DNA of 23,616 nt from Chiloscyllium plagiosum (taxonomy: Eukaryota), in assembly GCF_004010195.1 (NCBI RefSeq), contig NC_057719.1, forward strand, positions 39,794,252 to 39,817,867. Direction: 5' to 3'. The position numbers were made by a program, and so were the translations under genes. Shown one piece after another: positions 1 through 23,616 of the stretch; position 1 is the stretch's first letter; every line of letters starts with the position of its first letter. The notes under the pieces are model-generated. The model worked only from the letters and a program-made list of their open reading frames with translations. It did not search any database and was not told the origin of the DNA.

Positions 1-139
1 CCAGTGGATAGCAGATAGTTCAGTTCCCATGCAATCTTAGGTGGGTTTTATCCTCAAAACCTGGCATGTTCCCAACAGTTGTAACACTTAAATACAGTGA
101 AATACAGATAGGTATATACATGTTGCAGTTAAAATAGCG

Positions 140-1310
140 TTAACAGTTAAAGTATTTGTTCCCGTTAGGAGGTGCAGTCGTGCCTTGTTCTGTTATGTTT
201 TCGGTAGTCTCCCCGGGATGACTGTCTTGTCTGCCTTTGCTGCTTGCATCTGGGGAGTGGTCAATGACATGAGTTTGACAGGAGTCTTTAAACAGTTTTA
301 GTTGGGTCCAGTGCTTCCATGTGCCTTTTCCTTTAATATCGATGCAGGCCCAGGTGTCCCCGCTTATTACCACATCGTATGGTCCATTCCATTTTGGGAC
401 AAAGCCTGGTTTGTCGGGCAGTGCTCACACCAGGACGTGGCTTCCTGCTGCTGGGACCTCAGGAAAGACTTTGAGGTCCCCTGCCCTGTCCTTTTTGTCC
501 TGTTTGTCAATTACAGATTTCTGCATTCCTGTCAATCGGGCACTTAATTCTATGACATATCGCCGAATTTTGTCTTTTAGTGCACCCACATTAGTGCCAC
601 CTGTGATTATTGTCTCTGGCAATTGCATTGCTTGCCCCATCATTAATTCAGATGGGGTTAGCCCGGTCGTGGTGGCTCTTAATCTCATTAGTATGGCTGG
701 CAGCACTTCAGCCCATGTTCTGTTTGGGGCCTGCATAGCCTTAGCTAAAGTATTTGTGAGCGTTCTATTCATTCTCTCTACCATCCCTGAGCTCTGGGAG
801 TGATAGGGGATGTGGAATTTTTGTCTAATGCCGAGTAATTGGCATACAGTCTTCATGGCTCTTCCTGTAAAATATGTCCCTTGGTCAGGGTTGATCTGGA
901 GGGGCACCCCCCCACCTAGGGATTATCTCCTCTGCTAATATTCTGGCCAGAGTGGTTGCAGTGCAGCTTTTGGTTGGGAATGTTTCTACCCACTGGGTGA
1001 ATTGGTCTATGATGACCAGGCAGTACGTTTTCCCATGGGAAGGTGGTAGTGGCCCTGTAAAATCTATCTGTAAGTGTTCCCAGCGTCCCCTAGGTCTGGG
1101 CTGGTGTCCCATCCTAACTTTTATTGGTCTCCCTGGGTTATGTTGTGCACAAACCATGCAACTGCAGCAGGACTTGGCCACATCTCTTCCCATTCCCTTC
1201 CACTTACCACTCTCTCCCTAGGGTTGCTATTATGGCCTCTCTACCTGTATGGGAGAATCCATGGTGCAGTTCAAGCAATGTGTTCTGTATACATGTTAAT
1301 GCTACCACCT
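140..1310 (-). pseudogene. pol: Retroviral integrase (frameshifted)
   Basis: HHCC remnants (LHHGFSHTG ... CCSCMVC), catalytic core WEHLQIDFTGPLPPS / DQGTYFTG / SSGMVERMNRTL, and a C-terminal WNGPY...WKHWTQLK region; stop at 140-142. Confidence 0.93.
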
Positions 1311-1399
1311 TGTCTGCTCGCCTCCAGAGACCATCTTTCCCTTTGAATGCCCCCCACAGTTTCCGTTGTTCTCTCTCTTCCTGCAGCTGCTGAATTTGG

Positions 1400-1890
1400 A
1401 TAGCATCTTTTGCTAATTCAATAGAGGCTATTGCAGTCTCGTTATTAGCTTCTTGTTCTCGGGCTTTCTGAGTTGCTTGGTCTGATGCCTGGTTTCCTTT
1501 GAATTTTAGCCAACCTGGGCTCTCTTTTGCTGGCTCCTTTTGATGGGCTTTTATTTTTATTACTGCAGCTTTTTTTGGCTCTTCACTGGCACGCAATAGT
1601 GCCTGACTTCTTAATTGTTGTGAGATAGGGGTTCCCCCCACGGTGGTGAACCCTCTTTTGTCCCATGCCACCATGGACTACACTGAAGGCATATTAACTA
1701 TCTGTATTTATATTCACGGGTTTTTCTTTTGCTAGTTCCAGTGCTTTGGTGAGTGCTACCAGTTCTGCTACCTGTGTGGACAGACTTCCATCAATCCTCC
1801 CGGACATAACTGTTTCTAACTTTTCATCTACCACAGCCTATCCTGTTTGGAGCGACCCTGCTACATAGTTTTGTCACCCGTTCATGAAGA
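1400..1890 (-). pseudogene. pol: Retroviral RNase H (disrupted)
   Basis: Minus translation gives STQVAELVALTKALELAKEKPVNINTDS*YAF, then AVIKIKAH...KGNQASDQA in ORF 1204..1674. A separate tether-like region lies between this domain and the RT. Confidence 0.9.
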
Positions 1891-1899
1891 GGGTCTCCT

Positions 1900-3300
1900 C
1901 AGCTGTGTCTAGGGGGTATCTTTTACTTGCTCTTTATCCTCATCCCCATCTATATCCCCACAGCTCCTCGTTTTCCTGTGTCTATAATTCCCTCAGCTGG
2001 GTTTTCTCCCATATCCCTATCACCACGGACCGACTTGGGGATAAAAGAACTGCCTCCCATTTTGCCCTTTTCATATTGGAAATGGCCCTCAGTTTCTCTG
2101 TGTTTCGCATCTCTACTATGGTGTGCTGAGTGCAGAGGATGACAGTCCCTGTCATTACTATGGGCTCACTAACCCTAACGGCACAAGCAGCACAGTCTAA
2201 GATTGCTATGCACCTGGGCAACCCGGTGAATATTGACCCTTCTGTGACCCTACACACCTTCTCCTGCTAATGTGATCTTGGGTGACCACTGCGGAGTAAA
2301 ACCTTCCCTCATTATTACAGTGTATGTGAAAATCCTTGCTGGGATCTGGCAGCTCCAGCCCGGGGGTCAATATGAGCTGAGTTTTAAGCTGACTGTATGC
2401 CTCCTCCTGTTCTGGCCCCCAGGTTACAGTTTCCAAGGTGGGCTTGACTCCTTTAATTAGTCTCTGGATCGGTTCAGCCAATTTTGTGAACTCGGGTATA
2501 AAGCTCTGACTGTAGTTGAATAGCCCCATGACCTTTCTGACTCCCCTGACAGTAACAGGTCATGGCATCTGTTGGATTGCCTTCTTGCAGTCGTTGGGCA
2601 TTTCTTTGAGTCCCTGGGATATAAGGTAAGGTATAAGATTGGGGTTATGCCAATCTGTGCCTTTGTGGGGCTAACTTTTAACCCTATGGTTGCCAATTCC
2701 TGCAATACTAACCCTAAAGCTTCCTGGTGCCAATTCCTGCAATACTAACCCTAAAGCTTCCTGGTGAGGCAATTAAGATATTATCTACATTTGGAGGGCA
2801 GTGCTGCCCTCTGGTAAACCTATTCTCTTTAGGATGTCGCTTAGTACCCTGTGAAAAATAGTGGGGCTGTTGTGGAACCCTTGTGGCAGGCGAGTCCACA
2901 TGTACTGCCTGTCCCTTACTGTAAAAGCAAAATTTGTTCTGGGACTCAGGGTGTAACGGGATAGACAAGAACCTGTTGGCTATGTCTAAAACTGTAAACC
3001 TCTTGTGCTCAGGGGCCAAGCTGTTTAAAATGATGGAGGGGTCTGCTACAATGGGATGCAATTTGGGAGTGACCTTACTTAGTCCTGTATAATCAATGGT
3101 GAACCTATAGCTCATGTCAGGCTTTATTATTGGCCACATTGGAGAATTAGTTTTACTTGCAGTTTCTTTCAGGATTCCCTGTTTCGCTAGTCCTTGCGCT
3201 ATCTTCACAACTACTTGTTCTGCTTCGGGTTTTATTGGGTATTGCTGGTGGGGCTTATGCTCCAGTCTGGGAACCCTTATTGGGCCTAAGTTAACTAGAC
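1900..3300 (-). pseudogene. pol: Retroviral reverse transcriptase plus connection/tether (disrupted)
   Basis: NSPMWPIIKPDMSYRFTIDY, FTVLDIANRFLSIPLHPESQNKF, WTRLPQGFHNSP (shifted frame), YxDD decayed to NVDN at 2780-2791, GLKVSPTKAQ, GLFNYSQSFIPEF. Confidence 0.93.
2691..2766. repeat. Perfect 37-bp tandem duplication inside RT
   Basis: tgccaattcctgcaatactaaccctaaagcttcctgg at 2691-2727 and 2728-2764, followed by tg. Confidence 0.97.
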
Positions 3301-3479
3301 CTGTATCTAACTTTGTTTCTGCCCAGGCTCTGGGAATGGAGGCACAGATGGCTCCGAACCCCCCTTTTCAAGGTTCCAGTCTCTACTGGTGACAGTAGCC
3401 ACTTTAATAGTTTCAAGTTGACTTGTAAGTTTTCCAATCTCAGTCTTCCGACCGTCCTGTCTGGGCCAAATCAATTTCC

Positions 3480-3800
3480 CTTTTGCACAATTGATTAGAA
3501 CATTATATTCTCTCATGAGATCATTGCCCATTACGGTGCCCTCATTATTTTAGCATACATAGAATCTCATGGGCATATATATGTTATTTATTTCTACAAG
3601 AGTAGTTTCACTTAGGTAAGCTGGTGTTTTATCCCCTCCTACCCCAGTTAAATGAATCATTTTGTTTGTGTGGGGTAACGGTAGGTTTGTGATGGATACA
3701 GCGGCTCCTGTGTCTACTAGCATCTCACATTTCCTCCCTCCTATTACTGTGGGTACCATAAATTCTCTCCTCTCCCTTACTCTCACGAATGGGGACAGCT
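3480..3800 (-). pseudogene. pro: Retroviral aspartic protease
   Basis: IGGRKCEMLVDTGAAVS (DTG at 3706-3714), flap LTGVGG, and C-terminal MGNDLM in the next fragment. Confidence 0.92.
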
Positions 3801-3879
3801 GGTTGTCAGTTCTGCTGATCTCGGGACTCCCGAGGTTCTGCTGTGTTTCGGGTGGTATTTGGGGGTGCCCCATGCTTTT

Positions 3880-4885
3880 CCCAGCACACTGCTTGAGTGT
3901 ATGTCCTATCCTTTTGCAGTGGCTGCAGTATTACTCCCATTTTCAGGATGTCTTGGTGGGTACTAGAGAGCCCATCTTTAAAAGCTTGGATGAATGCCCA
4001 GTCTCCCCAATCTGGGTTTGCTTGCCCTGATAGATCCTAAATAATCGTTCCCCATATTCAGAGGTTCCTTCCCCTTTAAGTTGTTTTGTGTTTGTGATCC
4101 TGCTTCAGTTCATGGGAGCATTTCCTAGCACACTGGATTTCTTCTTTAAAGTCGATGAAGGGGGCTTGCTGGGCACCTATCTCTGCTGTGAAGGCAATGG
4201 CATGTGTCCACCATCCTCCCCTAAAGTCTTGGACTGTTGTGGCGTCGGGTTTGCCAGGTATCAGCCTCCACTTGTCTGCTGGACAAACTGCCCGGACCAG
4301 GTGTTTTGTGTCCCTCAGGTGTAGTTGGTGCCTTACCCATACACTATCCAGCTCTTCCCAGAAATTGGTGTTTGCACTCCAGGGCTGTAATTTGCCCAGG
4401 GAGGCCATAATCTGCTGCCTCTCCTCTGGAGTGAAGGGTTTATAATTCGCTTTGAGCTGTGAATCTGTTCCTCCTCTGGTAATGCGTGCTAAGTTGTACT
4501 CCTGCACGGTTTGTCCAGCAGAGGGAGCAGTTGGCTCCTGCTGAACGCTTCATAGGAGGGGAGACCGTCAATTTCTCTCTCCTAAGGTGAATTCTAAACT
4601 TTTTATTCTGCCCTCCACTTCTCTAACTTGCTCCTGGTCCTTTCTCCACCTACTTGTGGAGGCACTCATTTGTTCAATTAGGCCTGCTAATTGGTGTACT
4701 AACATTACCCCTAGCTTTTTAGTTTTATTCCATTTCTGCTTATCTATCCACTGTCTCTGTTGTGCTAATGTCTGGGATGGGTCCCACCCACTCTTCTTCA
4801 TTTGCTCTGTCAGCCCTTGTCTGTCTGCCTTGTATTTCTCAATAAGGGAACCTGCAGAATCCCCCTTAGAACTTCGATCTGCCAT
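3880..4885 (-). pseudogene. gag: gag (disrupted, probably internally deleted)
   Basis: ATG at 4885, PTAP at 4523-4534, capsid-like YKPFTPEERQQI, MHR-like TKQLKGEGTSEYG, and Cx2Cx4Hx4C knuckle CSHCKRIGHTLKQC at 3886-3927. Confidence 0.85.
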
Positions 4886-5740
4886 TTAGCAGATTGTGTA
4901 CCCCCGGATACTACCAACAGTAACATGTTCCTAATCTAGTGGGGACTTCTCTACCCCCTGGCCAGCACCATCCTTATTGCCATAGCAGTCTCCTAGCAAG
5001 GTATGCTCTCTACTGGTGGGACATCTCTGCCCTCCTGGCCGGCTGGTTCAAAAGGGTGTGCTCTCTATCTGTGGGACTCTTTAGCCTCTCGGTCACCTCT
5101 GCTGACCCAATGCCTCCCAATAGGCCCAGAAACATACCTCTAGCCCGGTGTGCTCTCTACCCTCCCGACCACCGCCACTACTCAAGCTCCACCGTTCTAC
5201 TACGGACTGACAGGGTATCACGGTTACTCACAGTGTCCATGCTCCCCATCTTGGTTATGTGCGCTCCACTGAGGTTTGGCTCTTGGTCAGAGTGATCAGC
5301 TCCAATTCCTCACCACACTGGAAGTTACAAGTACAGACAGCACTCAACCTTTAACTTCAACTCTAACTGGACTCTGCATTGTGCATTGTTCGCTCCTACA
5401 CAGTCCAATGTTATCCGACTTTGCCACTTGTGCTTCACAGCTCCTAGTGCCCTTGGCACCTCAATTCCCACTTCAAATCCCAACCTCCACGTGGTGGGGG
5501 CTACCCTCTTAACAACTGGTTTAGGGCAAGGCTTTTGAGACAGGCACTACCATGTCCTCTGGCTGTTTCAGCACCAGCAGCAGATTCTTACAACAGTTAA
5601 AACAGTTAAACACTTATTCTCCACAGATATGCACTTAAAAAATGGTAACGCAGTACTTGTAGCAAATCAAACATCAGTATATCTTTTAAACTGTGTTCTT
5701 GGCCCAGTCTGACTCTTCCCGTTTGCAGGTACAAATTGGT

Positions 5741-5749
5741 TCTTACCCT
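5741..5749 (-). promoter_or_regulatory. Candidate retroviral major splice donor
   Basis: Minus strand reads GG|GTAAGA about 50 nt downstream of the PBS, the usual position for the major splice donor. Confidence 0.55.
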
Positions 5750-5793
5750 GGTCTGCCCGATCGTGGCCTCCAACCAGGGCACCAGTAATAAGA

Positions 5794-5811
5794 ATCCTGC
5801 TCGCAGTGCCA
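5794..5811 (-). promoter_or_regulatory. Primer-binding site, tRNA-Ser-like
   Basis: Minus strand TGGCACTGCGAGCAGGAT begins 2 nt after ...TACAACA. It resembles the complement of vertebrate tRNA-Ser 3' ends (TGGCGCTG(C/T)GAGCAGGAT, recalled from memory) with 1-2 mismatches. Confidence 0.8.
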
Positions 5812-5813
5812 AT

Positions 5814-6617
5814 TGTTGTATGGAAAATCACCAGCCGCGGAGTCAGAATCTGGATTCTAATATAGAGTTTATTGCAAAAGGAAATACTGGAACTCCAGGG
5901 AGAGAAAGTCACCAATAGCACAGTGGTCAGCTGTGAGTCTTCTCTCGACCAGGAGCACGTCAAGAAACTTCTATACATCTTGTGAGACCATAGGTCGGTG
6001 ATGAGATTATTGTCTTTGTAACATGGTTTGTTTATGGCAATCATTACAGAATCATTAATAGTTTCGATACAGTCTTTGTCAGTTCCAGCACAGCCTTTTT
6101 TAATTTCTGCATGGTCATTGTCAGTTTCAATGTCTGCACGGAAATCCATTGCTGTAGTAATGGGTGCTAATTGCTCTTCTTAAGAAGGATGATTACTGCA
6201 GCCCTGGCTATTAGCATTTCGTATTGAGTCTGTATCAAGCTGTTAGCATTTGTATCAAAGGTGTTGGCTGGACCCAGACACTTTGGCGGGCAGTGTTCGT
6301 TACTCATGTGTGTTCTCTCCCCCACCTGTGTTAAACTAATTGACTGGGTCGTGAGTGCATTGTGCTGGCATTCTGGTGGCCCCAGGCAGTGTCTGTACCA
6401 GCTCTGCTGTTTCTCTCCATGTTGTGATCCGCGGCCATCTTGTGTATCTGTGTACTTAGTGTCACCCTGCCCCGTGCCATCTCCCTCTTCAGCGGCGATC
6501 TGAAAGATCTGCTTTGCTAAGCTCTGCACCACAACTCAGGCGAAGTGGTGCTTTTACCTTCCCCACCTAAGTTATTTCAGGAAATTTCAATAATTAAATA
6601 TTGGTGGAATCGTTACA
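5814..6617 (-). repeat. 5' LTR (~800 bp; outer boundary tentative)
   Basis: U5 end ...ACAACA at 5814; AATAAA on minus at 5868-5873; TATA-like GTATAGAAG near 5968-5976; YY1-like CAAGATGGCCGC at 6431-6442. Candidate start TGTAACG at 6617, alternative TGTCTGG at 6280. There is no second LTR in the window to confirm the boundary. Confidence 0.65.
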
Positions 6618-6627
6618 CACCTTTTTT

Positions 6628-7504
6628 AGCAAGGGAAGATGATTCAAAGGTTCGGTTGAGTCCCAACACACAGGACATTCCCTGCCAGCATTGGACACAT
6701 TCGTGACTACGACTGTGACTGCAGCTTCAGCCTCCTCTGCAACTCTGATGGAAACACTCAACCAAAAGACCTTGGCTGCAGAGCTTGTGAAGGTCTGGGA
6801 AATGGTCGAGGCTTCAGTTGAGAAGAGTCACACTAGGCTGGACCTGATCTCGGCCATGCTGCACAAACATGAGCAGGAGCCAGAAAGGCTCGGAAAGCGA
6901 ATGGAGGAGGCCGAACGTCGGACTGCAGCATCGGAGACCATGATCGAGTCCTTGACAGAGCGGATCCAGGCGCTCGAGAAGCAGGTCCAAGCCTTAACAG
7001 CGCAGGATGACAACCTTGAAAACAGATGTCAGAGCAAGAATTAACCGGGTCGTCGGGTTGTCGGAGGGAGTGGAAGGTGAACAGCCCGTAAATATTTTTG
7101 TAGACTGGCTGCCGCAATTTCTTGGTTGGGAGGCCGAGGCAGGCTGGGTGAAGGTCAACAGAGTTCACTGGGTTGCGGTGCACAGGCCCAGTTTGGACCA
7201 GCGCTCCTGCCAGGTCCTGGTGCGATTCCAATGCTACAGGAACAAGCAAAGAGTAATGGAAGCTTCCAGAATGCAGGGAAGGATCCACAGACCTTAATAC
7301 ACAATGGATCCAAGATAATGTTCTTCCAGGACTTTTCCGTGGCTGTGATCCGTAAAAGGAAATAGTTTGATGAGGTGAAGAGAAGACTGAGGGACCTCGG
7401 ACTCTGTAAGGTACCCGGCGGTGCTTCATTTTACTTATGATGGGTCTGTTCACTCATTTGAATCTTCAGAAAAAGTGAAAAACTTTCTGGACACTTTAAA
7501 ATAG
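6628..7504 (+). pseudogene. L1 ORF1p (coiled coil plus RRM/CTD), disrupted
   Basis: Coiled coil, then DDNLENRCQSKN..RVVGLSEGVEG (the L1 ORF1 LENRSRRNNIRIVGLPE motif) and IMFFQDFSVAVIRKRK; stop at 7502-7504. Start is approximate. Confidence 0.88.
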
Positions 7505-9359
7505 ACTGGATTGTCTAAAGGATATGGACAATAATGTTTTCTGTTTTTCTTTTGTACTTCTCTCCATTTCTTAACAAAAGAGTTGTTGGATGTTTTGTGA
7601 TGTTAATTGGGGTTAATGTATAGTTAGGGATGAGTAGAGTGCTCACTTTTAACTTCTTTGTTAATATTACTTTTTTTTCTTTTGCTTGAGTTTGGGGTGT
7701 GGCTCAAGCTGGAAGGAGTTATGGAGGTGTATGGGAGATGTGTAAGCCCCCACTGTGGGCAGGGTGTAGAGTCCCCCATTACCTGCCTTTTGTGTTTTGC
7801 ATTTGGTTTAGTTTGTTGGCTTTTTGTAGATGTAGTTTTTGAAAGTTAAGTTTGTTAGGTGTAGTAGTTTTAGTGTGCATAGTTTTAAGGGTCTATGAGT
7901 CTATCTTCATTTATACTGAGCGATTTGAAAGTCGAGTTATTCCTCTCAGGAGTTCAAAGGTTATTCTAGAGGGTCATGGCAAAATGTTGTACATGGAACA
8001 TTAAAGGGAGTCACTTGCCGGTCAAGAGGAAAAAGGTACTCTCAAGTCTTAAAACGGTAAGGGTTGATATTGCCCTGTTGCAGGAAACTCACCTTGATGA
8101 TAAGGAACATGCGAAATCACAGCAGGTGTTTTTTTTGTCCTTCAATACTAAGAGTTAGAGGGAAGCCAATACTCATTCGGAAGAATTTCCCATTTAAGTT
8201 ACTAGACCATATTAAAGATGAGCATGGGCTGTTCGTAATTCTTAGAATCTCAGTATATGGTGAAGAATATGGTATTTTGAATGTTTATTGTCCTCCGGCA
8301 CATCACCTTAAACTTCTGATAGATGTATTCTCCAAATTGATTGCTCTTGCGTCACGGCATATTATTGTAGGGGGAGATTTTAAAGGTCTCATGGGTGCCC
8401 CTGTGAATAGAATGTGCCCAAAGGTCCCCCAAAGCTTTCTTTGCAATCTAAGCAACTAGTTGATTTATGTATGGAATTGGGACGGTGGATATTTGGAGGC
8501 ATCTTTTTTCTAGTCAGCTCAAGTGTTATACTAGGGTTGATCTTTTCCTAGACCCCACATTTTTTTGGATTTGGTGATGTCCTGTACAATTGGGAATATC
8601 ACAATTTCCGATTTGCAGCAGTACATTTAGTGGTCAAGATTAAGGACAATGTGGCAGGGTCAAGGCACTGGCGAATGGTTCCCTTTATTCTCAAGGACAG
8701 TAAGTTCGAGTATTTTATGAATGAGTTTAAAGCATTCTTGGCCATTAATTTGGATATGGCGAGTAACCCGTCTATTCTCTGGGAGACTGCTAAGGCTTAT
8801 GCTAGGGGGATAATTATTTCTTACTCTGCCAGTCAGAAGCGACAGAAGGTAGAGCAGCAGCGCCTGCTCGAGGCCTGACTGAAGACAGCTAAGATGGCAT
8901 ATTTTGATAGGCCATTGGTGGCGAAGTTGCAGTGGGTGACAGTTCTTCAGTCCACCTTGAATTCCATGCTCACACAGACAGCGAGGAAGGAACTTTGCTT
9001 TGTGAAACAAAGGTTGTTTGAGCATGGCAATAGGCCGGGCGAATATCTGGCATATCTGGCGAGGACAAAGAACGCCCCCCACAATCTATTACCTCAATCA
9101 GGGAAAGGACTGGAACTCTTGTGATTCTAAAAAGATCAATGCTGCATGTCGGAGGTTTTACTCCGAATTATACCAGCCGCAAGGCTGTAAACACAGATGG
9201 GCTAAGGTGGAGTCGTTTTTTAGAAACCTGGATCTTCCAGGAGTAACCTCTGAACAGGCGTTTCTCCTTAATGCCTCTTTAACAGTGCAAGAGGTACAGG
9301 AGGCGGGGAAGCAGCTTCAAAGTGGAAAGGCACCCAGCCCTGATGGTCTCCCTAGTGAA

Positions 9360-10198
9360 TTAGAGTCAGAGATGTACAGCATGGAAACAGACCCTTCGGT
9401 CCAACCTGTCCATGCCAACCAGATATCCCAACCCAATCTAGTCCCACCTGCCAGCACCCAGCCCATATTCCTCCAAACCCTTCCTATTCATATACCCATC
9501 CAATGCCTCTTAAANNNNNNNNNNNNNNNNNNNNNNNNNNNNNNNNNNNNNNNNNNNNNNNNNNNNNNNNNNNNNNNNNNNNNNNNNNNNNNNNNNNNNN
9601 NNNNNNNNNNNNNNNNNNNNNNNNNNNNNNNNNNNNNNNNNNNNNNNNNNNNNNNNNNNNNNNNNNNNNNNNNNNNNNNNNNNNNNNNNNNNNNNNNNNN
9701 NNNNNNNNNNNNNNNNNNNNNNNNNNNNNNNNNNNNNNNNNNNNNNNNNNNNNNNNNNNNNNNNNNNNNNNNNNNNNNNNNNNNNNNNNNNNNNNNNNNN
9801 NNNNNNNNNNNNNNNNNNNNNNNNNNNNNNNNNCAACACTCCCTAGGACTTTACCATTAAGTGTATACGTCCTGCTAAGACGTGCTTTCCCAAAATGCAG
9901 CACCTTGCATTTATCTGAATTAAACTCCATCTGCCACTTCTCAGCCCATTGACTCATCTGGTCCAGATCCTGTTGTAATCTGAGGTAACCCTCTTCGCTG
10001 TCCACTACACCTCCAATTTTGGTGTCATCTGCAAACTTACTAACTGTACCTCTTATGCTCGCATCCAAATCACTTGGGTAAATGACAAAAAGTAGAGGGC
10101 CCAGCACCGATCCTTGTGGCACTCCACTGGTCACAGGCCTCCAGTCTGAAAAACAACTTTCCACCACCACCCTCTGTCTTCTACCTTTGAGCCAGTTC
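9360..10198 (-). mobile_element. 5'-truncated CR1-clade LINE inserted antisense into L1 ORF2
   Basis: RT C-terminus VTSGVPQGSVLGPLLF...KFADDTKIGG...WQMEFN..KCKVLHFG, with a CR1-type 3' UTR and tail at 9360-9514. Removing the insert restores GGTCTCCCTAGTGAA-TTCTACAAAGAA (GLPSEFYKE). Confidence 0.93.
9515..9833. other. Assembly gap (319 N)
   Basis: Run of N inside the CR1 copy. Confidence 1.
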
Positions 10199-13100
10199 TT
10201 CTACAAAGAATTTGTAAATATATTGCCAGCGCCGATGCTGGACACGTACAACTACTCATACAGTTGTGATTGACTCCCACCATCCATGAAAGAGACCAAA
10301 AGCTCTCTCAGCCTTAAGAAAGGGAAGACCCTGGAGGACTGTGCTTCTTAGAGGCCCATCTCGCTTTTAAATTTTGATTTTAAAATTTTGTCTAAGACTC
10401 TTGCATTAAGGGCTGGAAACAGTGTTGCCTTCCATTGTCATAGAGGATCAGACAGATTTTACAAAAGGTCGCAGATCCTCCAACAACATTAGGAGATTAC
10501 TTAATATGGTCCATGCGTGTCAGCAGCAATCTGTTCAGGGATTGGTGATCTCTTCAGATGCAGAGAAGGGGTTTGACCAGGAGGAGTGGCCATATCTTTT
10601 TAACACCCTGGAACGGTTCGGTTTAGGTGAAGTCTTTATTAGATGGGTAAGGGTCCTTTATAACAATCCTCTGGCTGAGGTTCTCACCAATGGAGTAAGA
10701 TCCAGTATTTGTAGGGACAGTTAGCAAGGTTGTCCCCTCTCACCACAATCTTTTACACTGATGATTGAACTGCTGTCAGAGGCTATCCATAGGGACCCTA
10801 ACATAACAGCCCCAGAAGTGAGATCAAAGGCACATAAGATCACATAATATGTGGATGACGTAGTTATCTTTCTGTTGAACCCAGTAGTTTCTGTACCTCA
10901 TTTGACACAATGTATTAATCTATTTGGCTCGTTTTTTGGGCTATAAGATTAATTTTTCCAAATTGGAGGCTACACCTATGGGGAGTCTTGGGGGAATATC
11001 TGATGTTGAGGGTGAGTCACGGTTCCCCTTCAAGTGGTCACTGGGAGGTTTTCTTTATTTAGGTATTTTTGTTACTTCCGTCTTCGATCAGTTATTTAAG
11101 GCTAATTTTATCCACTTGTTTGACATAATTAAGCAAGATCTTCAAAGATGGGAGGCTCTTCCAATATCCTGGTTAGGACAAGTAGCCCTTATTAAAATGA
11201 ATGTCCTTCTTTGTTTGCTATACCCCATGCGAATGCTTCCCTTGATTTTTCCCAGGTAAATATTTAAGAGACTTAATAGCTGGTTTAATTCTTTTATCTG
11301 GCACCATAGGCGGCCCTTTAGTAAGCTCACCAAATTGCAACTGCCCCAAGGTCTGTGGGGAGGGGATCTCCCGGATATTAAAAGATATCAATTAAGCGCC
11401 CTTTTATCTTTTGTGAGCAATTGGGCTTGTGAGGACCTGGTGTCAATATGGTTGGATATTGAGGCCTCCCAGGCAAAGTGACCCCTTATTAGCCTGTTGT
11501 CCTTAGATAAAATGAGGACAGCTGCAGAATACTATCGTAATCCAATAATTATTAATCCTGTCAAAGCGTGGAGGGCAATGAGACAGATTGAGAGTATATA
11601 ATTGGTATAGTTGGTATGCCAGGGTTCCGGCCAGGGATAATGGACTCCAGATTCAGACTCTGGGGAGCTAGGGGAGTTTCTTGTTTGGGTGAAATATTTG
11701 AGGGCAAAACATTGATGCCCTTTGACCAAGTAAGCCGCAAGTATGGATTATCTAGCAGAGATGTTTTTCATATTTTTCAGATTAGGGACTTTATTCAAAA
11801 AGGAACTATGCGCTTGACCGACTCTTACAGAACCGATACAGAGAAGAGGGTACTTTATGCCAAGAGCATTCTCTCAGTTAGTACTCTTTATCATCTGTTG
11901 GGGAATGGGCCATCAGATGATATTGAGCAATTATATGAGGTATGGGAGAGACAGGTAGGAGTTGAGATTTCTTCTGAGACATGGGAGGATATCTGGGAAA
12001 GTGCAATATCTGTAATAGGACCCATGCTATGCAGCTGGCGATTCTTCATAGGGTGCATCTGGCCCCAGACCGTCTCTTGAAATTTAAGGTGTGAGTATCC
12101 TCAGTTTGCCTCAAGTGTAAAATAAGTACTCTCACTCACTGTCTGTGGTCCTGCCACAGGCTTCGGATGTACTGGAGTACTGGAGTGCTATGGCAGGATT
12201 AATAGCAGGATTTTGGTCTTGGGGACCAAAATTAAGATGGACCTGATTTCTCTTCTGGGCCTGCCCAATTTATCTTCTTTAGACACTCTTTGGAGAAAGC
12301 TTTTTAATATGTTTACTTTCTGCACGAGGAAAAATATTTTGATGTATTGGGTGTCTGAAAACCCTCAAGCCTGTCTGGCTGGAGTAAGCTAATCATGGAA
12401 CATATCTCCCCTGGACTTCCTTACAAATATGGTGCACCAAAACACTGAAATTTTTTATCAGACGTGGTAGCCCTATTTGGATTACCTAGATATAGATTTA
12501 TCTGCCATTCTAATTAGGGCTTTTGTGTAGCTATGACGATCTGATTTAGTGAACTTGGTACCCTGACAGGAAGAATTTAGAATAAATGCAGGTGTTATAT
12601 TCAATGCTCTTGAAGGTCGGGAGCTATTGTTTCATTGCACTGAGTGATGCTATTTATTTATCACTTCTACTGGACTGTTTATCTTGCACATGAGTATAGT
12701 TTTGTTTTGTTTATATTGTTGTTTTTAAATTTTTTTTAAAAAGAGTAGCATTATTGTTGGTTTATTGTTGTAATTTTGTAAGAAATCTTTTTTCAATAAA
12801 AATACTTTTTAAAAATGCAGTTAAGAATAAACCAAACAGCAGAGCATAATACTGCTTGATTCATAAAACAAATCGCTTTGAAAGGACAAGCATTGTGCAG
12901 ATTCAAAATGTGCAATACAAAGAAAAACCCCAAAAATTAACAGATTCCATATTCTACAATTCTTTATAACAATAGTTTTGTCCTGTAGCTCAGTACCTTG
13001 AATGGTAAACAATAAATTGGCAGATGATACGAAGTTTTATTTGCCAAATTATTCTATTTAATATATTCACAGAAACACTGAATTGGGTTTCAGTCAAGAC

Positions 13101-17579: not shown

Positions 17580-18926
17580 TCAATATTCCCATTCATCTGT
17601 TTTCATGTCTAGATAATTCAGAATATTTTGAGCAAATTTCACTGCTTGTTTTCTGGCAACCTTAGCACCATCATTCCCTCGGGTCTCTACTGCATCGAGT
17701 GCTAGGAGTTGCTTTGTGAGCATTTCTTCCAGTCTCATGTAATTCTTGTCTGTTCTGTCTCCATCAAATGACAATACCTGCTTTTGAAATTCTGACAAAT
17801 CGCTCAGAACCTGCCATATAGCTTTCTGTGAAGGATGTTCATCCCTAAGTTGCTCTTCCATGTTTGCTCTCTTTGCAAGCGTCTCTTTCAGGTCAACATA
17901 AGCTATTACAGCCTGCACATCAACTACAGCTCTTCTCCTAGCTTCACGGATACATGGATTTTTGCCAATGTCTACTTTATCTAATTCAGTAAGAACACTT
18001 TGCAGTTCTCCTTTTGGTTTGAAATGGAGGTCAGAAGCATTTTCTAGTTGTAGCAGCTGTTGTTTTAAATGTGCCGTCTTCTTCCCTATTTCTTCTATCT
18101 GTTTGATAGACTGATTTTGTGCTAGATCGTAACTACCTGCAGCCTCGCCTTCTGATTCAATCTCCAAGTGTTCGAGTAAACAATTGATTTCATGCACTAC
18201 ACGTTTCCGATAGTTTCTTGCTTCTGAGTGCCCAACCACATCAATTGCATCCAATTGCATTAAAAATCCTGTGAGAATACGGGAAAGATGTGCACAGTTC
18301 TCCAAGGTATTCAGGTTCATAAGCAGGCCAATTACATCCCATCTTGCTTTGCTAACTTCACATAAAACAGAGTTGATCTTGGGAACAGAAGGGTGTGTAT
18401 CTGCAGACAGAGGTAAAGATAAGGCTTGCCGACCAATACAATTTTCAATGATGTCCTGCAGTGCACAAATCTTGGTCAAAGCTCGATATCTAGCTTTCCT
18501 CAAGCTAATTTTTCCTCCTGTTTTCACCTGTGTCAGTTGAAATATAATTTCTTGGATGCGCTCAGCAAATTCTTCAGTTATCAAACCCCCAGCTGAAGAT
18601 AACTCATTGGTAACCAACTGTTGTGCATCACTGAAGACCTTTTCCACCCTCAGGCGTGATGGATGAGTTGCAATTTGTTCTAACTCTTTGAGCAGTCCCT
18701 CCACATCATTCACTGCACTTCTACGGCCATGCTGGATGTCAGGCTTGCCATCAGTGTCTACTGCATCTAACTCAAACAGCATCTTGATCAAAGTACTCTC
18801 CAGGCGCTTGTATTCTCTATCAGACTGTGTACCACTGAACGAAACTACAAGTCGCCTAGCTTCATGGATTCCCTTTTGAATTTCTTGGATTCTAATCATG
18901 GAAGGATGTTGTTGACCCATGGCCAT
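17580..18926 (-). CDS. BAG5: BAG family molecular chaperone regulator 5 (tandem BAG domains), 448 aa
   Basis: Intact ORF. N-terminus MAMGQQHPS and C-terminus LNYLDMKTDEWEY match vertebrate BAG5 (MDMGNQHPS...LDLKSDEWEY). Repeated BAG units of the form L..LD.V...G....R..RK.AV. The CDS is in one exon, as in mammals. Confidence 0.97.
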   Translation of the reverse strand: MAMGQQHPSMIRIQEIQKGIHEARRLVVSFSGTQSDREYKRLESTLIKMLFELDAVDTDGKPDIQHGRRSAVNDVEGLLKELEQIATHPSRLRVEKVFSDAQQLVTNELSSAGGLITEEFAERIQEIIFQLTQVKTGGKISLRKARYRALTKICALQDIIENCIGRQALSLPLSADTHPSVPKINSVLCEVSKARWDVIGLLMNLNTLENCAHLSRILTGFLMQLDAIDVVGHSEARNYRKRVVHEINCLLEHLEIESEGEAAGSYDLAQNQSIKQIEEIGKKTAHLKQQLLQLENASDLHFKPKGELQSVLTELDKVDIGKNPCIREARRRAVVDVQAVIAYVDLKETLAKRANMEEQLRDEHPSQKAIWQVLSDLSEFQKQVLSFDGDRTDKNYMRLEEMLTKQLLALDAVETRGNDGAKVARKQAVKFAQNILNYLDMKTDEWEY

Positions 18927-18958: not shown

Positions 18959-18977
18959 CTGAAATTGAAGCAAAACA
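18959..18977 (-). promoter_or_regulatory. Splice acceptor of the BAG5 coding exon
   Basis: Minus strand tgttttgcttcaatttcAG|acac, 32 nt upstream of the ATG. Mammalian BAG5 has an upstream non-coding exon. Confidence 0.75.
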
Positions 18978-19739: not shown

Positions 19740-20295
19740 TAGATTATATTGTATTAGATTAGATTAGCTACACAGAAACAGGCCATTTTGGTCCAATAAA
19801 TCAATGGTGATATTTATGGTCCAATCAAATCACCCCAGAATCTAAATATACAATCAATTCATTGCCCTCTTCTGTTTGCCCAGATTTGCCTTAAACATTT
19901 AAGACAAGCTTCAACCCACCCAGTGGTAATGAGTTTGACATTCTTGGTAAGAGATGAGTGAAGAAGTTTCTTCTGAATTACATATTGGTTTCCTTGGTGA
20001 CTAATTTATATTGATGGTCTTTAATTCTCCAGGAGAGGAAATATTCTCTCTGTATTTACTCATTCAAAACCTTTCACATTGTTTAAGATTTCTATTAGAT
20101 CACACATGAGCCTCTTTCTCCCAAGAGAGAAAACATCCAGCCTGTCAATCCTTTCTTGATGTGCATGCCTGTGCACCAGGTATCATTCTTGTAAAAATTC
20201 TCTGCACCCTCTGCATTCTTTTTATAAAATGTGACCAGAACTGTAAGGTCATATAATTGAGGTTTAATGCAGGTTTAGCATGACTTTCCTACTCT
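19740..20295 (-). mobile_element. Old CR1 3' fragment
   Basis: ttagattag tail followed by cagaaacaggccatt..ggtccaa, which resembles the CR1 ends at 9370 and 23420, then a decayed antisense ORF2 C-terminal region. Confidence 0.7.
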
Positions 20296-20417
20296 GTTTC
20301 AAGAAGAAATCATGTCTGACTCAAACATTTACTGTTTATCTCTCCAGAGATGCTGCCAGACCTATAGAGTTTCTACAGCATTTTGTTTTTATTTCAAATC
20401 TCCAGCACCTGCAGTAC
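20296..20417 (+). repeat. Decayed short repeat (putative Penelope-derived end), host of the HE1 SINE
   Basis: Ends tctccagcacctgcagtac[SINE]actgcttttg, similar to the reverse complement of the 21281-21310 terminus. Confidence 0.55.
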
Positions 20418-20737
20418 GGCACAGCAGCTCAGTGGCTAGCACTGCTGCCTCACAGCACCAGGGACCCAGGATGGATTCCCACCTTGGGTGCCTGTCTGGG
20501 TAGAGTTTGCACATTCTCCCAGTGTCTACCTGGATTTCCTCCAGTGCTCTGGCTTCTTCCCACTATCCAAAGATGTACAGGTCAGGTGAATTGGCCATAC
20601 TAAATTGCCCATAGTGTTAGGTGCATTAGTCAGGGGTAAATATAAGGTAGGGGAATGGGTCTGGGTAGGTTACTCTTTGGAGGGTTGATGTGGACTTGGG
20701 CTAAATGGCCTGTTTCCATACTGTAGGGAATCTAATC
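20418..20737 (+). mobile_element. tRNA-derived V-SINE (HE1-like), full length
   Basis: A box AGCTCAGTGG and a decayed B box GGATGGATTCC; V-domain-like gagtttgcacattctccc...ggcttcttcccac; CR1-like tail aaatggcctgtttccatactgtagggaatctaatc; TSD gcagtac (20411-20417) / gaagtac (20738-20744). Confidence 0.88.
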
Positions 20738-20899
20738 GAAGTACACTGCTTTTGACAGAGCTCAATGCACTTGTCAAAATAAATGATGCTGCTAATCTGA
20801 AGTGCAAATATTAGTGAATGGTGTATTTGTATTCAAATTATTTTGCTTCTCTACCCAATAAATAATAAGTGACTTCCTGTTCCTCCAAGCAAAATATAC

Positions 20900-21240
20900 T
20901 ACCTCACATTTTCAAGCAACTATGTTGAACTTCATTAATCAATTAATTGCCCATTCTACATATCTTTGGTAATATAGAGCTGTCCTCCTCAGCATTGACT
21001 ACTCACTCCCAACCCTCACCCCAAATTTTATGTAAAGTATACCAAAAATACCAACAACAATTTGGAGTTTGCAAATTGCAAACAGTAGTGGGCCTAATAT
21101 CAACTCTTGTGGAATACCACTTTCCACTTTGAATATCTATCATTCTCTCTATTTGCTTTCTGTCTTGAAGCCAACCAGCAATCTATTCTGACCCTTTCCC
21201 CTGACTCCACATTCTCTGATTTATCTACAATAGAGCACTT
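20900..21240 (-). mobile_element. Ancient CR1 RT remnant, probably continuing the 19740 copy
   Basis: Minus 21121-21090 translates SGIPQELILG, a decayed SGVPQGSVLG motif. Further decayed CR1-like sequence may continue after 21905. Confidence 0.6.
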
Positions 21241-21278
21241 CAGAAATTCACTTAAATTAGACTTGCAGCATAACCATT

Positions 21279-21654
21279 AGGCAAAAGTGAGGATTGCAGA
21301 TGCTGGAAACCAGAGTCTAGATTAGAGTGGTGATGGAAAAGCACAGCAGGTCAGCCAGCATCCGAGGAGCTGGAAAATCGATGTTTCGGGCAAAAGCCCT
21401 TCCACATAGATACTGGGAGAATGTGCAAACTCCACACAGACAGGCTCCCAAGGTGGGAATCCAACCTGGGTCCCTGGTGCTGTGAGGCAGCAGTACTAGC
21501 CATTGAGCCACTATGCCGTACTGCAGGTGCTTCATTAGTTTTCCTAATGTAAAACTATTTCATTAGGAAGGGCTTTTTCCTGAAACATCGATTGTCCTGC
21601 TCCTCGGATGCTGGCTGACCTGCTGTGCTTTTCCAGCACCACTCTAATCTAGAC
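21279..21654. mobile_element. Outer hairpin element (putative Penelope-derived) with broken hammerhead cores
   Basis: 88-bp inverted arms 21315-21402 / 21567-21654 (5 mismatches). Flanking direct repeat tgcagcataaccatt (21264-21278) / tgcaacataatcatt (21890-21904). Confidence 0.8.
21403..21530 (-). repeat. Inverted copy of 20405-20532 (SINE head plus its 5' flank)
   Basis: 116/128 identity by hand count, ungapped, including 13 nt of upstream flank gcacctgcagtac. Confidence 0.9.
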
Positions 21655-21709
21655 AAAGTTAAAAATCACACAACACCAGGTTATAGTCCAACAGGTTTAA
21701 TTGGAAGCA

Positions 21710-21744
21710 CACTAGCTTTCGGAGCGATGCTCCTTCATCAGGTG
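21710..21744 (-). ncRNA. Minimal type I hammerhead ribozyme motif
   Basis: CAC-CUGAUGA-A-GGAGC-auc-GCUCC-GAA-AGCU-A^GUG: both core boxes, a 5-bp helix II, a palindromic AGCU helix III, a CUA cleavage triplet and a 3-bp helix I. Confidence 0.75.
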
Positions 21745-21749
21745 ATTGT

Positions 21750-21784
21750 CACCTGATGAAGGAGCATCGCTCCGAAAACCAGTG
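21750..21784 (+). ncRNA. Mutated hammerhead motif (predicted inactive)
   Basis: Same motif with AGCU changed to AACC, losing U16.1 and the palindrome. Confidence 0.65.
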
Positions 21785-22743
21785 TGCTTCCAATTAAACC
21801 TATTGGACTATAACCTGGTGTTGTGTGATTTTTAACTTTGTACACCCCAGTCCAACACCGGCATCTCCGAATCATGACTAATCTAGACATGCAACATAAT
21901 CATTGCCTATTTTCTTTACCCTTCTCAAAAAAATGGTTGGCTAAGAAAGATTTTCACTTTGGAAATCTATCAACTATTCATTATAATATTTTTAATATCT
22001 AGGTATTCTTCTCTCCTTTAGTGAGAATTCAATTTTTTCTTTCCGCTAATGTTAAACTGGTTGACCTTTAATTCCCTGGATACGTATGGTCCCACTTCTT
22101 ACATAAATGAATAACATTAGCTTTCTACTGGCTCACTGGCACCTTTTTCTATTGAATTATTATGTGCTATTAATATTGTCTCTTCCCTAGATACTATTAG
22201 ATGTAGATGCAATCCATGCAGATTAAGGGCTGTTTTAGTTTCTTTATTCAATATGTACCCTTGATATTTTAATTGCACTTATTAATCATTTTTGTCTTTT
22301 AGTCAGTGTTATGTCTACCTGTTCCATCTGCCTGGTAAATGTCAAACTGAAGTAATTATTTAACATTTCTGCCATCTCTTTACTGTTACTTGTGGTTTTA
22401 TCCAAAGTGGTCCTACTCTCATCACAGCCCTCCTTTTCAATTGAGGTGAAATTCAAATTCAAATTACTACTGAATTACATCCCTTGATACTTTTATTTCA
22501 AGGCTTCTGTTAGCCTTCCTAATTGTTTTACTGATTTATCTACTACATTCTTCAAATTCTTTTCTGCTGTCAATGCTTTTAAAGGTTTTCCTATTTTCTT
22601 AATGCTCAATTATTCTGATACATTATAATGTTTAGTTTGCTCTTGTCTTTTAGAGAAAGATACTTCTTGCATTTGTTTAAAACTTTTAAAATTATTCCCA
22701 ATTTTCATTCTATAATGTTATTTTCTAGTATAATAAACTGTTC

Positions 22744-23084
22744 TTTATTCTTCCATGGGATATAGGCATCACTGGCAAGGCAACCATTGTTTGCCATCCT
22801 TAACTGCCCTTGAACTGCTACTTCTGAGGGAAGTAAACAGCATTCCTGAGGATCTAGAGACACAAGTGGTAATGAGTGGCCAAAGATGGAAGATGCCATT
22901 TTCCAAAGGACATTAGTGAACAAGAAAGGTGTTTGAACAATTAATTACAATTTAATGGTAACCAAAGCTGATACTTTTAATTCCAGGTTTATTATTAAAT
23001 TAAATCCCACCAGTTGCCATGGTTGAATTTGAACATGCCTATCTGCATTACTAGTCTGGTGAAATTATTGTACCACAATCTCCC
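22744..23084 (-). mobile_element. Old tRNA-derived SINE (second family)
   Basis: Minus strand begins gggagattgtggtac...gactagtaat, has a B-box-like gttcaaattc and a core gttcactaatgtcctttgga, and ends gggcagttaaggatggc...cccatggaagaataaa. Confidence 0.7.
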
Positions 23085-23401
23085 ATTTTATTTGCTCAAA
23101 TTCTAAAATCAGCTGTTTGCCAAGCTATTAGTTTTTTTTTCTTTAAATCATGTTTATGCTTTTATTTATTATGGTTACTATTGTTTACATATTCTTCTAT
23201 TTTTGCTTCTCTTACCTGCTTTGATTCAGACTCCATTTCCAAGACTGAAGAAGATTGTAATCATTGCAAAACAGCAGGATCTTAAGTGATGGCAGTCTAT
23301 CTAAAGCGTTTTAACCATTTTTATATTGTTCATCTCCTCCACTGCAATATTAATTATATTTTGTGTGCCTAATTGACCTTAACATTCCTTAAACTATTCT
23401 T

Positions 23402-23616
23402 ACATAGAACATAGAAGAATACAGTGCAGTACAGGCCTTTCGGCCCTCGATGTTGCGCCGATCCAAGCCCACCTAACCTACACTAGCCCACTATCCTCCA
23501 TATGCCTATCCAATGCCCGCTTAAATGCCCATAATGAGGGAGAGTCCACCACTGCTACTGGCAGGGCATTCCATGAATTCACGACTCGCTGAGTAAAGAA
23601 CCTACCCCTAACATCT
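23402..23616 (-). mobile_element. Young CR1 3' end, running off the right edge
   Basis: (acatagaa)2 tail, caggcctttcggccc stem, and a 3' UTR similar to 9370-9510; CpGs are retained. Confidence 0.85.

What the first reader, a model, noticed from the sequence alone, without database searches (positions are those of the whole stretch)
21653..21889. Young 93-bp palindrome made of two opposed minimal hammerhead ribozyme motifs, intact only on the BAG5 sense strand
Seen: the arms are 90/93 identical around a 3-nt loop, with a perfect 12-bp TSD. Each arm carries CUGAUGA-A-[GGAGC auc GCUCC]-GAA. The minus copy continues AGCU-A-GUG (intact); the plus copy continues AACC-A-GUG, so 2 of the 3 arm mismatches fall on helix III and the cleavage site. 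Established: Penelope-like elements carry minimal hammerheads whose short palindromic helix III allows cleavage as dimers, they often leave inverted 5'-truncated ends, and an extra A after A9 is tolerated in some natural hammerheads. Inference: this is a non-autonomous ribozyme-bearing retroelement. In a minus-strand (BAG5) pre-mRNA the antisense arm is transcribed first and should sequester the ribozyme, giving a self-locked ribozyme.
Basis: partly seen in the sequence, partly recalled or inferred. Interest (0 to 1): 0.72.

Follow-up and report, generated by a model that had tools for sequence, protein, structure and literature searches.

The report
Penelope stub copied from capped RNA
This mirror-image repeat is one of more than a thousand similar stubs of a Penelope-type jumping gene in this genome, with no sign of a special role at BAG5, and the fixed start point and extra G of such stubs suggest that they were likely copied from both cut DNA strands up to the capped front end of the element's uncut RNA.

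Summary
The palindrome, the 12-bp repeat and the hammerhead motifs are real. It is not a special locus or a separate non-autonomous family. It is the usual insertion product of a protein-coding Penelope-like element (PLE): inverted arm, sense arm, 37-nt one-sided tail and target-site duplication. 1,202 loci turn at the same place, 136 with the identical junction, and the tail can sit on either arm. Arms start 8 nt before the ribozyme core, 30 nt after a TATA box, and 81% of non-templated neighbours there are G (one base upstream: no excess). This likely records the mRNA cap, so both cut target strands likely copied the capped, uncut 5' leader and the two copies were joined. The broken plus-arm ribozyme fits neutral decay (p about 0.05-0.12), and 'self-locking' is a by-product of head-to-head geometry on either strand. 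Cleavage was not tested; two U6-like fusions at the predicted cut hint at occasional cutting. The architecture is published; I did not find the cap signature in print. This scan's earlier notes reached the same cap reading on other DNA; I saw them after my own tests.

The parts
21644..21655 (+). Left target-site duplication (12 bp; last 3 nt shared with the inverted arm)
   Evidence: 46 of 65 sister palindromes have exact repeats of 8 bp or more against 3 of 300 shuffled pairings
21653..21749 (-). Inverted, tail-less arm: pLTR positions r-3 to r93 (r1 = 21745 on this arm)
   Evidence: the inverted arm's outer end falls at r84-97 in most sisters
21749..21750 (.). 2-nt junction overlap; base 21750 reads on the minus arm as a G where longer copies have C (inferred cap copy)
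   Evidence: sequence
21710..21744 (-). Minimal type I hammerhead motif with intact core; predicted cut between 21713 and 21712
   Evidence: anatomy as in PMC4209133; activity not tested
21749..21841 (+). Sense arm, r1-r93
21750..21784 (+). Hammerhead motif with changes at 21778 (position 15.2) and 21780 (U16.1); predicted inactive
   Evidence: the double change is in 3 of 98 copies that carry the first change
21793..21798 (+). ATTAAA poly(A) signal of the pLTR (r45-50; mirrored in the left arm)
   Evidence: poly(T) loose ends at r62 and r65 in 199 and 239 raw reads, mostly from sister copies
21842..21879 (+). One-sided 37-nt Penelope tail; contains the ORF start codon at 21874-21876
21878..21889 (+). 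Right target-site duplication
21279..21654 (-). Older insertion of a second hammerhead-bearing PLE-like family (arms 21315-21403 and 21566-21654, 94%) whose end is the target of this insertion; worn flanking repeat 21258-21278 / 21884-21904 (18 of 21)
17580..18926 (-). BAG5-type ORF, 448 aa, four BAG domains; splice-acceptor-like site at 18959-18960

Best explanation
The feature is a 225-bp stub insertion of a protein-coding Penelope-like retrotransposon, made of two head-to-head copies of the hammerhead-bearing end repeat, and it was likely written when both cut strands of the target primed reverse transcription at the element's two internal start sites and both copies ran off the capped 5' end of uncut element RNA before being joined. 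Shown: family membership, linkage to an RT/GIY-YIG ORF, tail, TSD, pile-up of arm starts just before the ribozyme, the position-specific extra G, and a poly(A) site at r62-65. Inferred: (1) a TATA/Inr promoter starts the mRNA at r-3, so the ribozyme is at the very front of the mRNA; (2) since the poly(A) site lies upstream of the priming sites (about r90 and r128), a unit-length mRNA offers those sites only near its 5' end, so stubs are the default product and long copies need read-through RNA; (3) the cap is copied as an extra C in the cDNA, which helps the two cDNA ends anneal (2 nt here). The copy is then inert; its hairpin would block its own ribozyme on either strand, as a by-product.
For: Copy number: 7,942 exact 28-nt cores, 13,998 exact tail 26-mers. 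ORF chain: tail ATG to N-terminus with DKG motif, RT (weak Pfam RVT_1, E 4e-4; Atlas score 0.96 to HTH_animal clusters), GIY-YIG-type C-terminus read by eye upstream of the pLTR. In the first 100 tail-anchored copies on contig 1, 75 of 99 scorable have an adjacent inverted piece and 43 of 99 sense arms start at r-10 to r+9, against 14 at r10-29, 8 at r30-49 and 4 at r-40 to r-11. Head-to-head junctions: 1,202 at the core, 53 at the cut site, 38 about 40 nt upstream. Base before r-3: C (templated) 5,855, G 1,379, T 194, A 134; one base upstream G 165, A 267 (Fisher p 2e-110). 39 of 40 G cases are arm starts with varied upstream sequence; 7 of 7 arms starting at r-3 in the tail-anchored sample have G. 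TATAAA begins 30 nt before r-3 and is kept across subfamilies with different spacers. A second family repeats the signal more weakly: G 6,287, A 3,376, T 1,624, 19 of 20 G cases being arm starts. In 8 of 13 loci with this junction type the G-bearing arm lacks the tail, which a single self-folding cDNA cannot produce. A related PLE cuts and extends both strands, starts at two internal sites and uses uncleaved RNA in vitro (PMC11167929). An extra G at full-length L1 5' junctions reflects the cap (PMC11702581).
Against: No 5'-end RNA data: the start site and cap are inferred from DNA. In 19 of 40 G cases the G could also be templated by the other arm. Arm starts scatter over about 20 nt and only 7 of 71 arm starts scored were exactly at r-3 (the scoring mis-handles older subfamilies). 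About a fifth of sense arms (22 of 99) extend more than 60 nt upstream of r1, so other templates exist. In family 2 the G share is only 56%. Pfam support for the ORF pieces is below cut-off, four family pieces gave no Pfam match, and the PDB search gave nothing. No intact full-length copy was recovered; the ORF was linked through overlapping broken copies. The samples come from one end of one contig and hold a few duplicates (L095/L098, L170/L171).
Confidence: 0.72

Rival explanations
1. Same PLE stub, but made by self-priming or fold-back: one cDNA (or an antisense template, as proposed in PMC3846280) folds on its own end and copies itself.
For: Arms meet at tight hairpin-like junctions. Both arms here share a minority variant. 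In L283 both arms carry the same rare U6-like piece, so both came from one template. It suffices for 5 of 13 loci where the G-bearing arm has the tail.
Against: It cannot supply the tail in the 8 of 13 loci, this one included, where the G-bearing arm is the tail-less one. TSDs with element-target overlap at both ends fit priming from both strands. An antisense template does not explain a G at the sense-strand Inr.
Confidence: 0.13
2. PLE stub whose fixed 5' end is set by something other than the cap: an RT stall at the ribozyme fold, a processing site, or untemplated C addition at any template end.
For: No RNA 5'-end evidence. Many RTs add untemplated bases (general knowledge). In D. virilis an intron ends at helix I (PMC4209133).
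Against: The G excess is confined to one position (versus 64, 65) that matches TATA-30/Inr spacing. No shared upstream exon appears at junctions. A stall would be expected at the 3' side of the structure (inference).
Confidence: 0.09
3. A self-propagating non-autonomous unit (retrozyme-like or MITE-like palindrome).
For: 136 loci have the identical junction; short copies far outnumber long ones.
Against: The tail sits on either arm of the identical junction (6 versus 3 for the exact junction, 8 versus 5 with variants); junctions vary widely; outer ends are asymmetric; TSDs are variable, mostly 8-16 bp; no tandem array here; the sequence is continuous with the ORF.
Confidence: 0.04
4. A locus-specific, selected 'self-locked' ribozyme in the BAG5 pre-mRNA.
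For: The intact motif is on the BAG5 strand; on that strand all three mismatches become G-U pairs, giving a fully paired 93-bp stem (-171 kcal/mol). The copy probably lies in the BAG5 5' intron.
Against: Young copy of a family with over 20,000 arms; mismatch placement p=0.05-0.12; about half of the arms have a broken core; minimal PLE hammerheads do not cut as monomers and are weak as dimers (PMC4209133); selection would more simply break the sense-strand ribozyme.
Confidence: 0.02

Closest known systems
Insertion units of endonuclease-positive Penelope-like elements (Adineta Pen2a, D. virilis Penelope; PMC3846280, PMC8557442)
   Same: Inverted 5'-truncated pLTR next to a direct pLTR, head-to-head; 30-40 bp tail on one end; pLTR plus tail reaching the ORF start; TSD of about 8-13 bp; TATA and Inr-like motifs in the pLTR.
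   Different: Here the unit has no body at all and is the commonest product; arm starts pile up at one site with an extra G; PMC3846280 favoured self-priming on an antisense template.
Minimal type I hammerheads of metazoan PLE pLTRs (PMC4209133)
   Same: CUGANGA and GAAA boxes, extra base between 9 and 10.1, G10.1-C11.1 pair, palindromic helix III remnant, short helix I; opposite-strand pairs 100-700 bp apart were noted.
   Different: Helix I is 3 bp; the two motifs are only about 10 nt apart; activity untested here.
Anolis Poseidon PAc in vitro (PMC11167929)
   Same: Two internal RT start sites bounding the tail, both strands extended, uncleaved RNA as main substrate.
   Different: In PAc the ORF starts in hammerhead stem II; here it starts at the end of the tail. 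This family has a Cys motif before the endonuclease, typical of Neptune/Nematis (read by eye, no tree).
L1 twin priming and cap-derived extra G (PMC11702581)
   Same: Second RT primed from the other DNA end; extra G at complete 5' ends; microhomology joins.
   Different: In L1 the two cDNAs copy adjacent parts of the RNA; here they copy the same part and both reach the 5' end.
Non-LTR retrozymes (PMC7229834; 10.64898/2026.07.22.740005)
   Same: Short, non-coding, type I hammerhead, PLE-related.
   Different: Retrozymes are head-to-tail tandem repeats with canonical hammerheads; this is a head-to-head pair with a minimal hammerhead and a TSD.

Membership tests
EN+ Penelope-like element | Single ORF with RT linked to the pLTR | tested here: met
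   Overlapping copies link tail ATG, DKG motif and RT; RVT_1 E 4e-4, below cut-off; Atlas 0.96. Absent from this stub itself.
EN+ Penelope-like element | C-terminal GIY-YIG endonuclease | tested here: inconclusive
   Motifs (CxxxC..WYIGET, R, H, E, N) read by eye in L069 and L067; Pfam did not match these pieces; it matched the second family's piece weakly (E 1.6e-4).
EN+ Penelope-like element | pLTR in direct or inverted orientation | tested here: met
   75 of 99 copies with an adjacent inverted piece; pLTR both before and after the ORF.
EN+ Penelope-like element | 30-40 bp tail on one end | tested here: met
   Sense ends at r124-130, inverted ends at r84-97.
EN+ Penelope-like element | Short variable TSD | tested here: met
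   46 of 65 versus 3 of 300 control.
Neptune/Nematis clade | Zn-finger in the RT-EN linker; RT phylogeny | tested here: inconclusive
   PCHGGRCKxC motif seen; no tree built.
Minimal PLE hammerhead | Core boxes, extra base after A9, G10.1-C11.1, palindromic 15.2-16.2, UH site | tested here: met
   Minus arm meets all; plus arm lacks U16.1.
Minimal PLE hammerhead | Compensatory changes between families | tested here: met
   Family 1 versus family 2: helix II A-U to G-C, helix I A-U to U-A, palindrome AGCU to ACGU; two families only, no formal statistic.
Minimal PLE hammerhead | Self-cleavage as a dimer | not testable with these tools
   Indirect only: 2 of 2 U6-like fusions join at the predicted cut; 409 poly(A) reads span the site uncut.
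Rfam hammerhead families | Covariance-model match | tested here: not met
   No hammerhead match at E<=10.
Non-LTR retrozyme | Head-to-tail tandem units, each with a hammerhead | tested here: not met
   No tandem array at 20000-23616; head-to-head geometry.
MITE | Symmetric terminal inverted repeats, fixed TSD, fixed interior | tested here: not met
   One-sided tail on either arm, variable TSD and junction.

The most novel reading that the evidence does not exclude
In these PLEs the hammerhead sits in the first 40 nt of a capped TATA/Inr transcript whose only RT priming sites lie just behind it, so the default reaction writes a palindrome of the mRNA's front end from both DNA strands. The genome's thousands of stubs then map the start site, cap, priming sites and (through U6 fusions) the ribozyme cut, and the ribozyme acts as a decapping switch that removes a 36-nt capped leader from the element's own mRNA.
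Probability: 0.35. Interest if true: 0.7.

Novelty: new member of a known kind. Interest (0 to 1): 0.45.

Why it matters
The locus itself is ordinary. The family-wide pattern bears on an open question, how Penelope-like elements make their head-to-head inverted ends and what the hammerhead is for. It gives exact, testable coordinates (start site r-3, cut r33/34, poly(A) r62-65, priming about r90 and r128) and argues for a capped sense template instead of the antisense self-priming model. It also means that such palindromes will be mis-called as miRNA hairpins, MITEs or retrozymes.

Tried and rejected
Rfam gave no hammerhead. The PDB sequence search gave no relative of the RT piece. Pfam missed four ORF pieces of this family. 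Pile-up of junctions at the ribozyme cut site: looked for, not found (53 loci, most joined at the AGCT or CTAG palindromes); no pile-up of read starts or ends there in 3'-end single-cell reads, which are unsuited to show it (one sample, and run X20 laid nothing). No listed holder of the BAG5 stretch was on record as RNA, which is no evidence either way. BAG5 exon 1 could not be placed by reads, so intron placement rests on one contig with 29 unplaced letters at the acceptor, a CpG island with donor-like sites near window position 41,100 and a COA8 exon on the other strand at 51,587. Unconstrained dimer folding of the arm did not give the hammerhead fold. A sequence look-up in earlier findings gave nothing. 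PMC7353768 gave no passage. U6 matches were below the Rfam gathering score; only L284 matched U6 by E-value.

Full report
Numbering. r1 is the T of TCACCTGATGA: 21749 on the plus arm, 21745 on the minus arm. The hammerhead core starts at r5 and the predicted cut is between r33 and r34.

Observation. The arms (93 nt, 97%), 3-nt loop and 12-bp flanking repeat are as described. The three mismatches (r30, r32, r54) are all on the plus arm relative to a sister copy, and both arms share a minority base at r18. The insertion also has a 37-nt tail on the right. It sits at the end of an older insertion of a second hammerhead-bearing family (arms 21315-21403 and 21566-21654). Rfam reports no hammerhead, but the motif matches the minimal PLE hammerhead point by point as described in PMC4209133 (read: parts 1-2 of 4), and the two families in these loci differ by compensatory changes in helices I and II and in the helix III palindrome.

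Family. The plus arm finds 40 scored copies at 97-100% of 1,175 candidates. Exact patterns count 7,942 cores, 13,998 tails and 22,851 copies of a downstream 19-mer, with reversed controls at 0. Longer copies extend upstream through a 3' UTR into a GIY-YIG-type C-terminus and RT. Downstream, the ATG at r126 opens an ORF that runs through the DKG motif into sequence shared with the RT-bearing locus. Profile support is modest: RVT_1 E 4e-4, Atlas 0.96 to HTH_animal clusters, nothing for four other pieces or in PDB. No intact copy was recovered. The family is a protein-coding PLE, probably Neptune-type (linker Cys motif, no tree). That the host is a shark comes from my recall of these repeats and from earlier notes, not from a test.

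The palindrome is the usual product. I took all of the first 100 tail matches on contig 1. One was dropped for an assembly gap; 75 of 99 have an adjacent inverted piece and 43 of 99 sense arms start within r-10 to r+9. In 65 with a normal inverted arm, 46 have an exact TSD of 8 bp or more, against 3 of 300 shuffled pairings. Genome-wide, 1,202 loci turn just before the core, 53 at the cut site and 38 about 40 nt upstream; the first anchor is shared by older subfamilies and the second is not, but the second region is itself very abundant. The exact junction of this locus occurs 136 times. In 13 loci of this junction type the tail was on one arm in 8 and on the other in 5, so the unit is rebuilt each time, not copied whole. 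The architecture is published: inverted 5'-truncated pLTR, head-to-head, one-sided 30-40 bp tail (PMC3846280, passages and Discussion; PMC8557442 and its preprint, passages).

Why arms start there. The base before r-3 is templated C in 5,855 copies, and G 1,379, T 194, A 134 in the rest; one base upstream G is 165 and A 267. Of the first 40 G loci fetched, 39 are arm starts; in 19 the G could also come from the other arm, in 20 it could not by my rule. In the tail-anchored sample 7 of 7 arms starting at r-3 have G, with no such excess at neighbouring starts. TATAAA begins at r-33 and, with TCCACA at the start (an Inr match by a recalled consensus), is kept across subfamilies whose spacers differ. 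The second family shows G 6,287, A 3,376, T 1,624 before its own Inr-like A. An extra G marks cap copying at full-length L1 ends (PMC11702581, passages). Raw poly(A) reads from one sample show family RNA ending at r62 and r65, after ATTAAA at r45, and 409 reads running through the uncut ribozyme into upstream pLTR; most come from other copies (454 of 540 differ from this copy at 21728). So a unit-length mRNA likely runs from r-3 to r65 of the next pLTR and has the priming sites only near its 5' end. A related PLE extends both strands from two internal sites on uncleaved RNA (PMC11167929, parts 1-2 of 4). Here the tail-less arm ends in r-3 plus G and overlaps the other arm by 2 nt, as expected if two run-off cDNAs annealed; a single self-folding cDNA could not supply the tail. 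These steps are inferred from DNA; no 5'-end RNA data were available.

Is the ribozyme active? Not tested. Junctions do not pile up at the cut. Following a lead from earlier findings, one pattern search found 2 loci with a U6-like end before the family sequence; both join at r34; one matches U6 at E 4.8e-7, below the gathering score. This is a small hint of occasional cutting.

BAG5. The ORF is at 17580-18926 on the minus strand. The element probably lies in its 5' intron, not shown directly. The minus-strand hairpin folds at -171 kcal/mol and would hide the motif, but so would either strand of any such copy. The mismatch placement has p=0.05-0.12 and only 65 of 124 sampled arms keep the core. 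Nothing points to selection. It is not a retrozyme by the tandem criterion (PMC7229834, passages; 10.64898/2026.07.22.740005, part 1 of 5 and passages).

Novelty. The element is a new member of a known kind. I found no paper reporting a cap-derived G or a run-off origin for PLE palindromes in searches; the library lacks most subscription papers, and I saw no supplements, where PMC11167929 Fig. S2 and PMC4209133's alignments may bear on this. The scan's earlier notes give the same cap reading on other DNA; they are unreviewed, and I saw them.

Noticed in passing
window 21258-21904: Nested insertions: an older second-family PLE-like palindrome with tail and a worn flanking repeat (18 of 21), split by what looks like a SINE at about 21404-21535, with the present element inserted at its end.
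   Followed up: partly
L283:1419-1558 (G000:C30): Palindrome in which both arms carry a U6-like 3' piece joined at the predicted ribozyme cut, so both arms came from one chimeric template.
   Followed up: partly
L284:1010-1062 (G000:C52879): U6 3' half (E 4.8e-7) joined exactly at the predicted cut of the young subfamily.
   Followed up: partly
L064:5780-6170 (minus strand): Two G-started leaders in direct order, with 150 nt of ORF start between them, as from a template jump after run-off.
   Followed up: no
window 21653-21841, minus strand: All three arm mismatches become G-U pairs on the BAG5 strand, giving a fully paired 93-bp stem, a possible ADAR substrate; chance 1 in 4.
   Followed up: no
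window 1-5800, minus strand: By eye, a broken gag-pol-like LTR retroelement or provirus; not examined with tools.
   Followed up: no
window 6600-12000, plus strand: By eye, a decayed L1-type element with a SINE and an assembly gap inside; not examined with tools.
   Followed up: no
L032:8001-9000 and G000:C10:39845838-39846002: CpG island with minus-strand donor-like sites, and a COA8 exon on the plus strand: probable shared BAG5/COA8 promoter about 19 kb beyond the element.
   Followed up: partly
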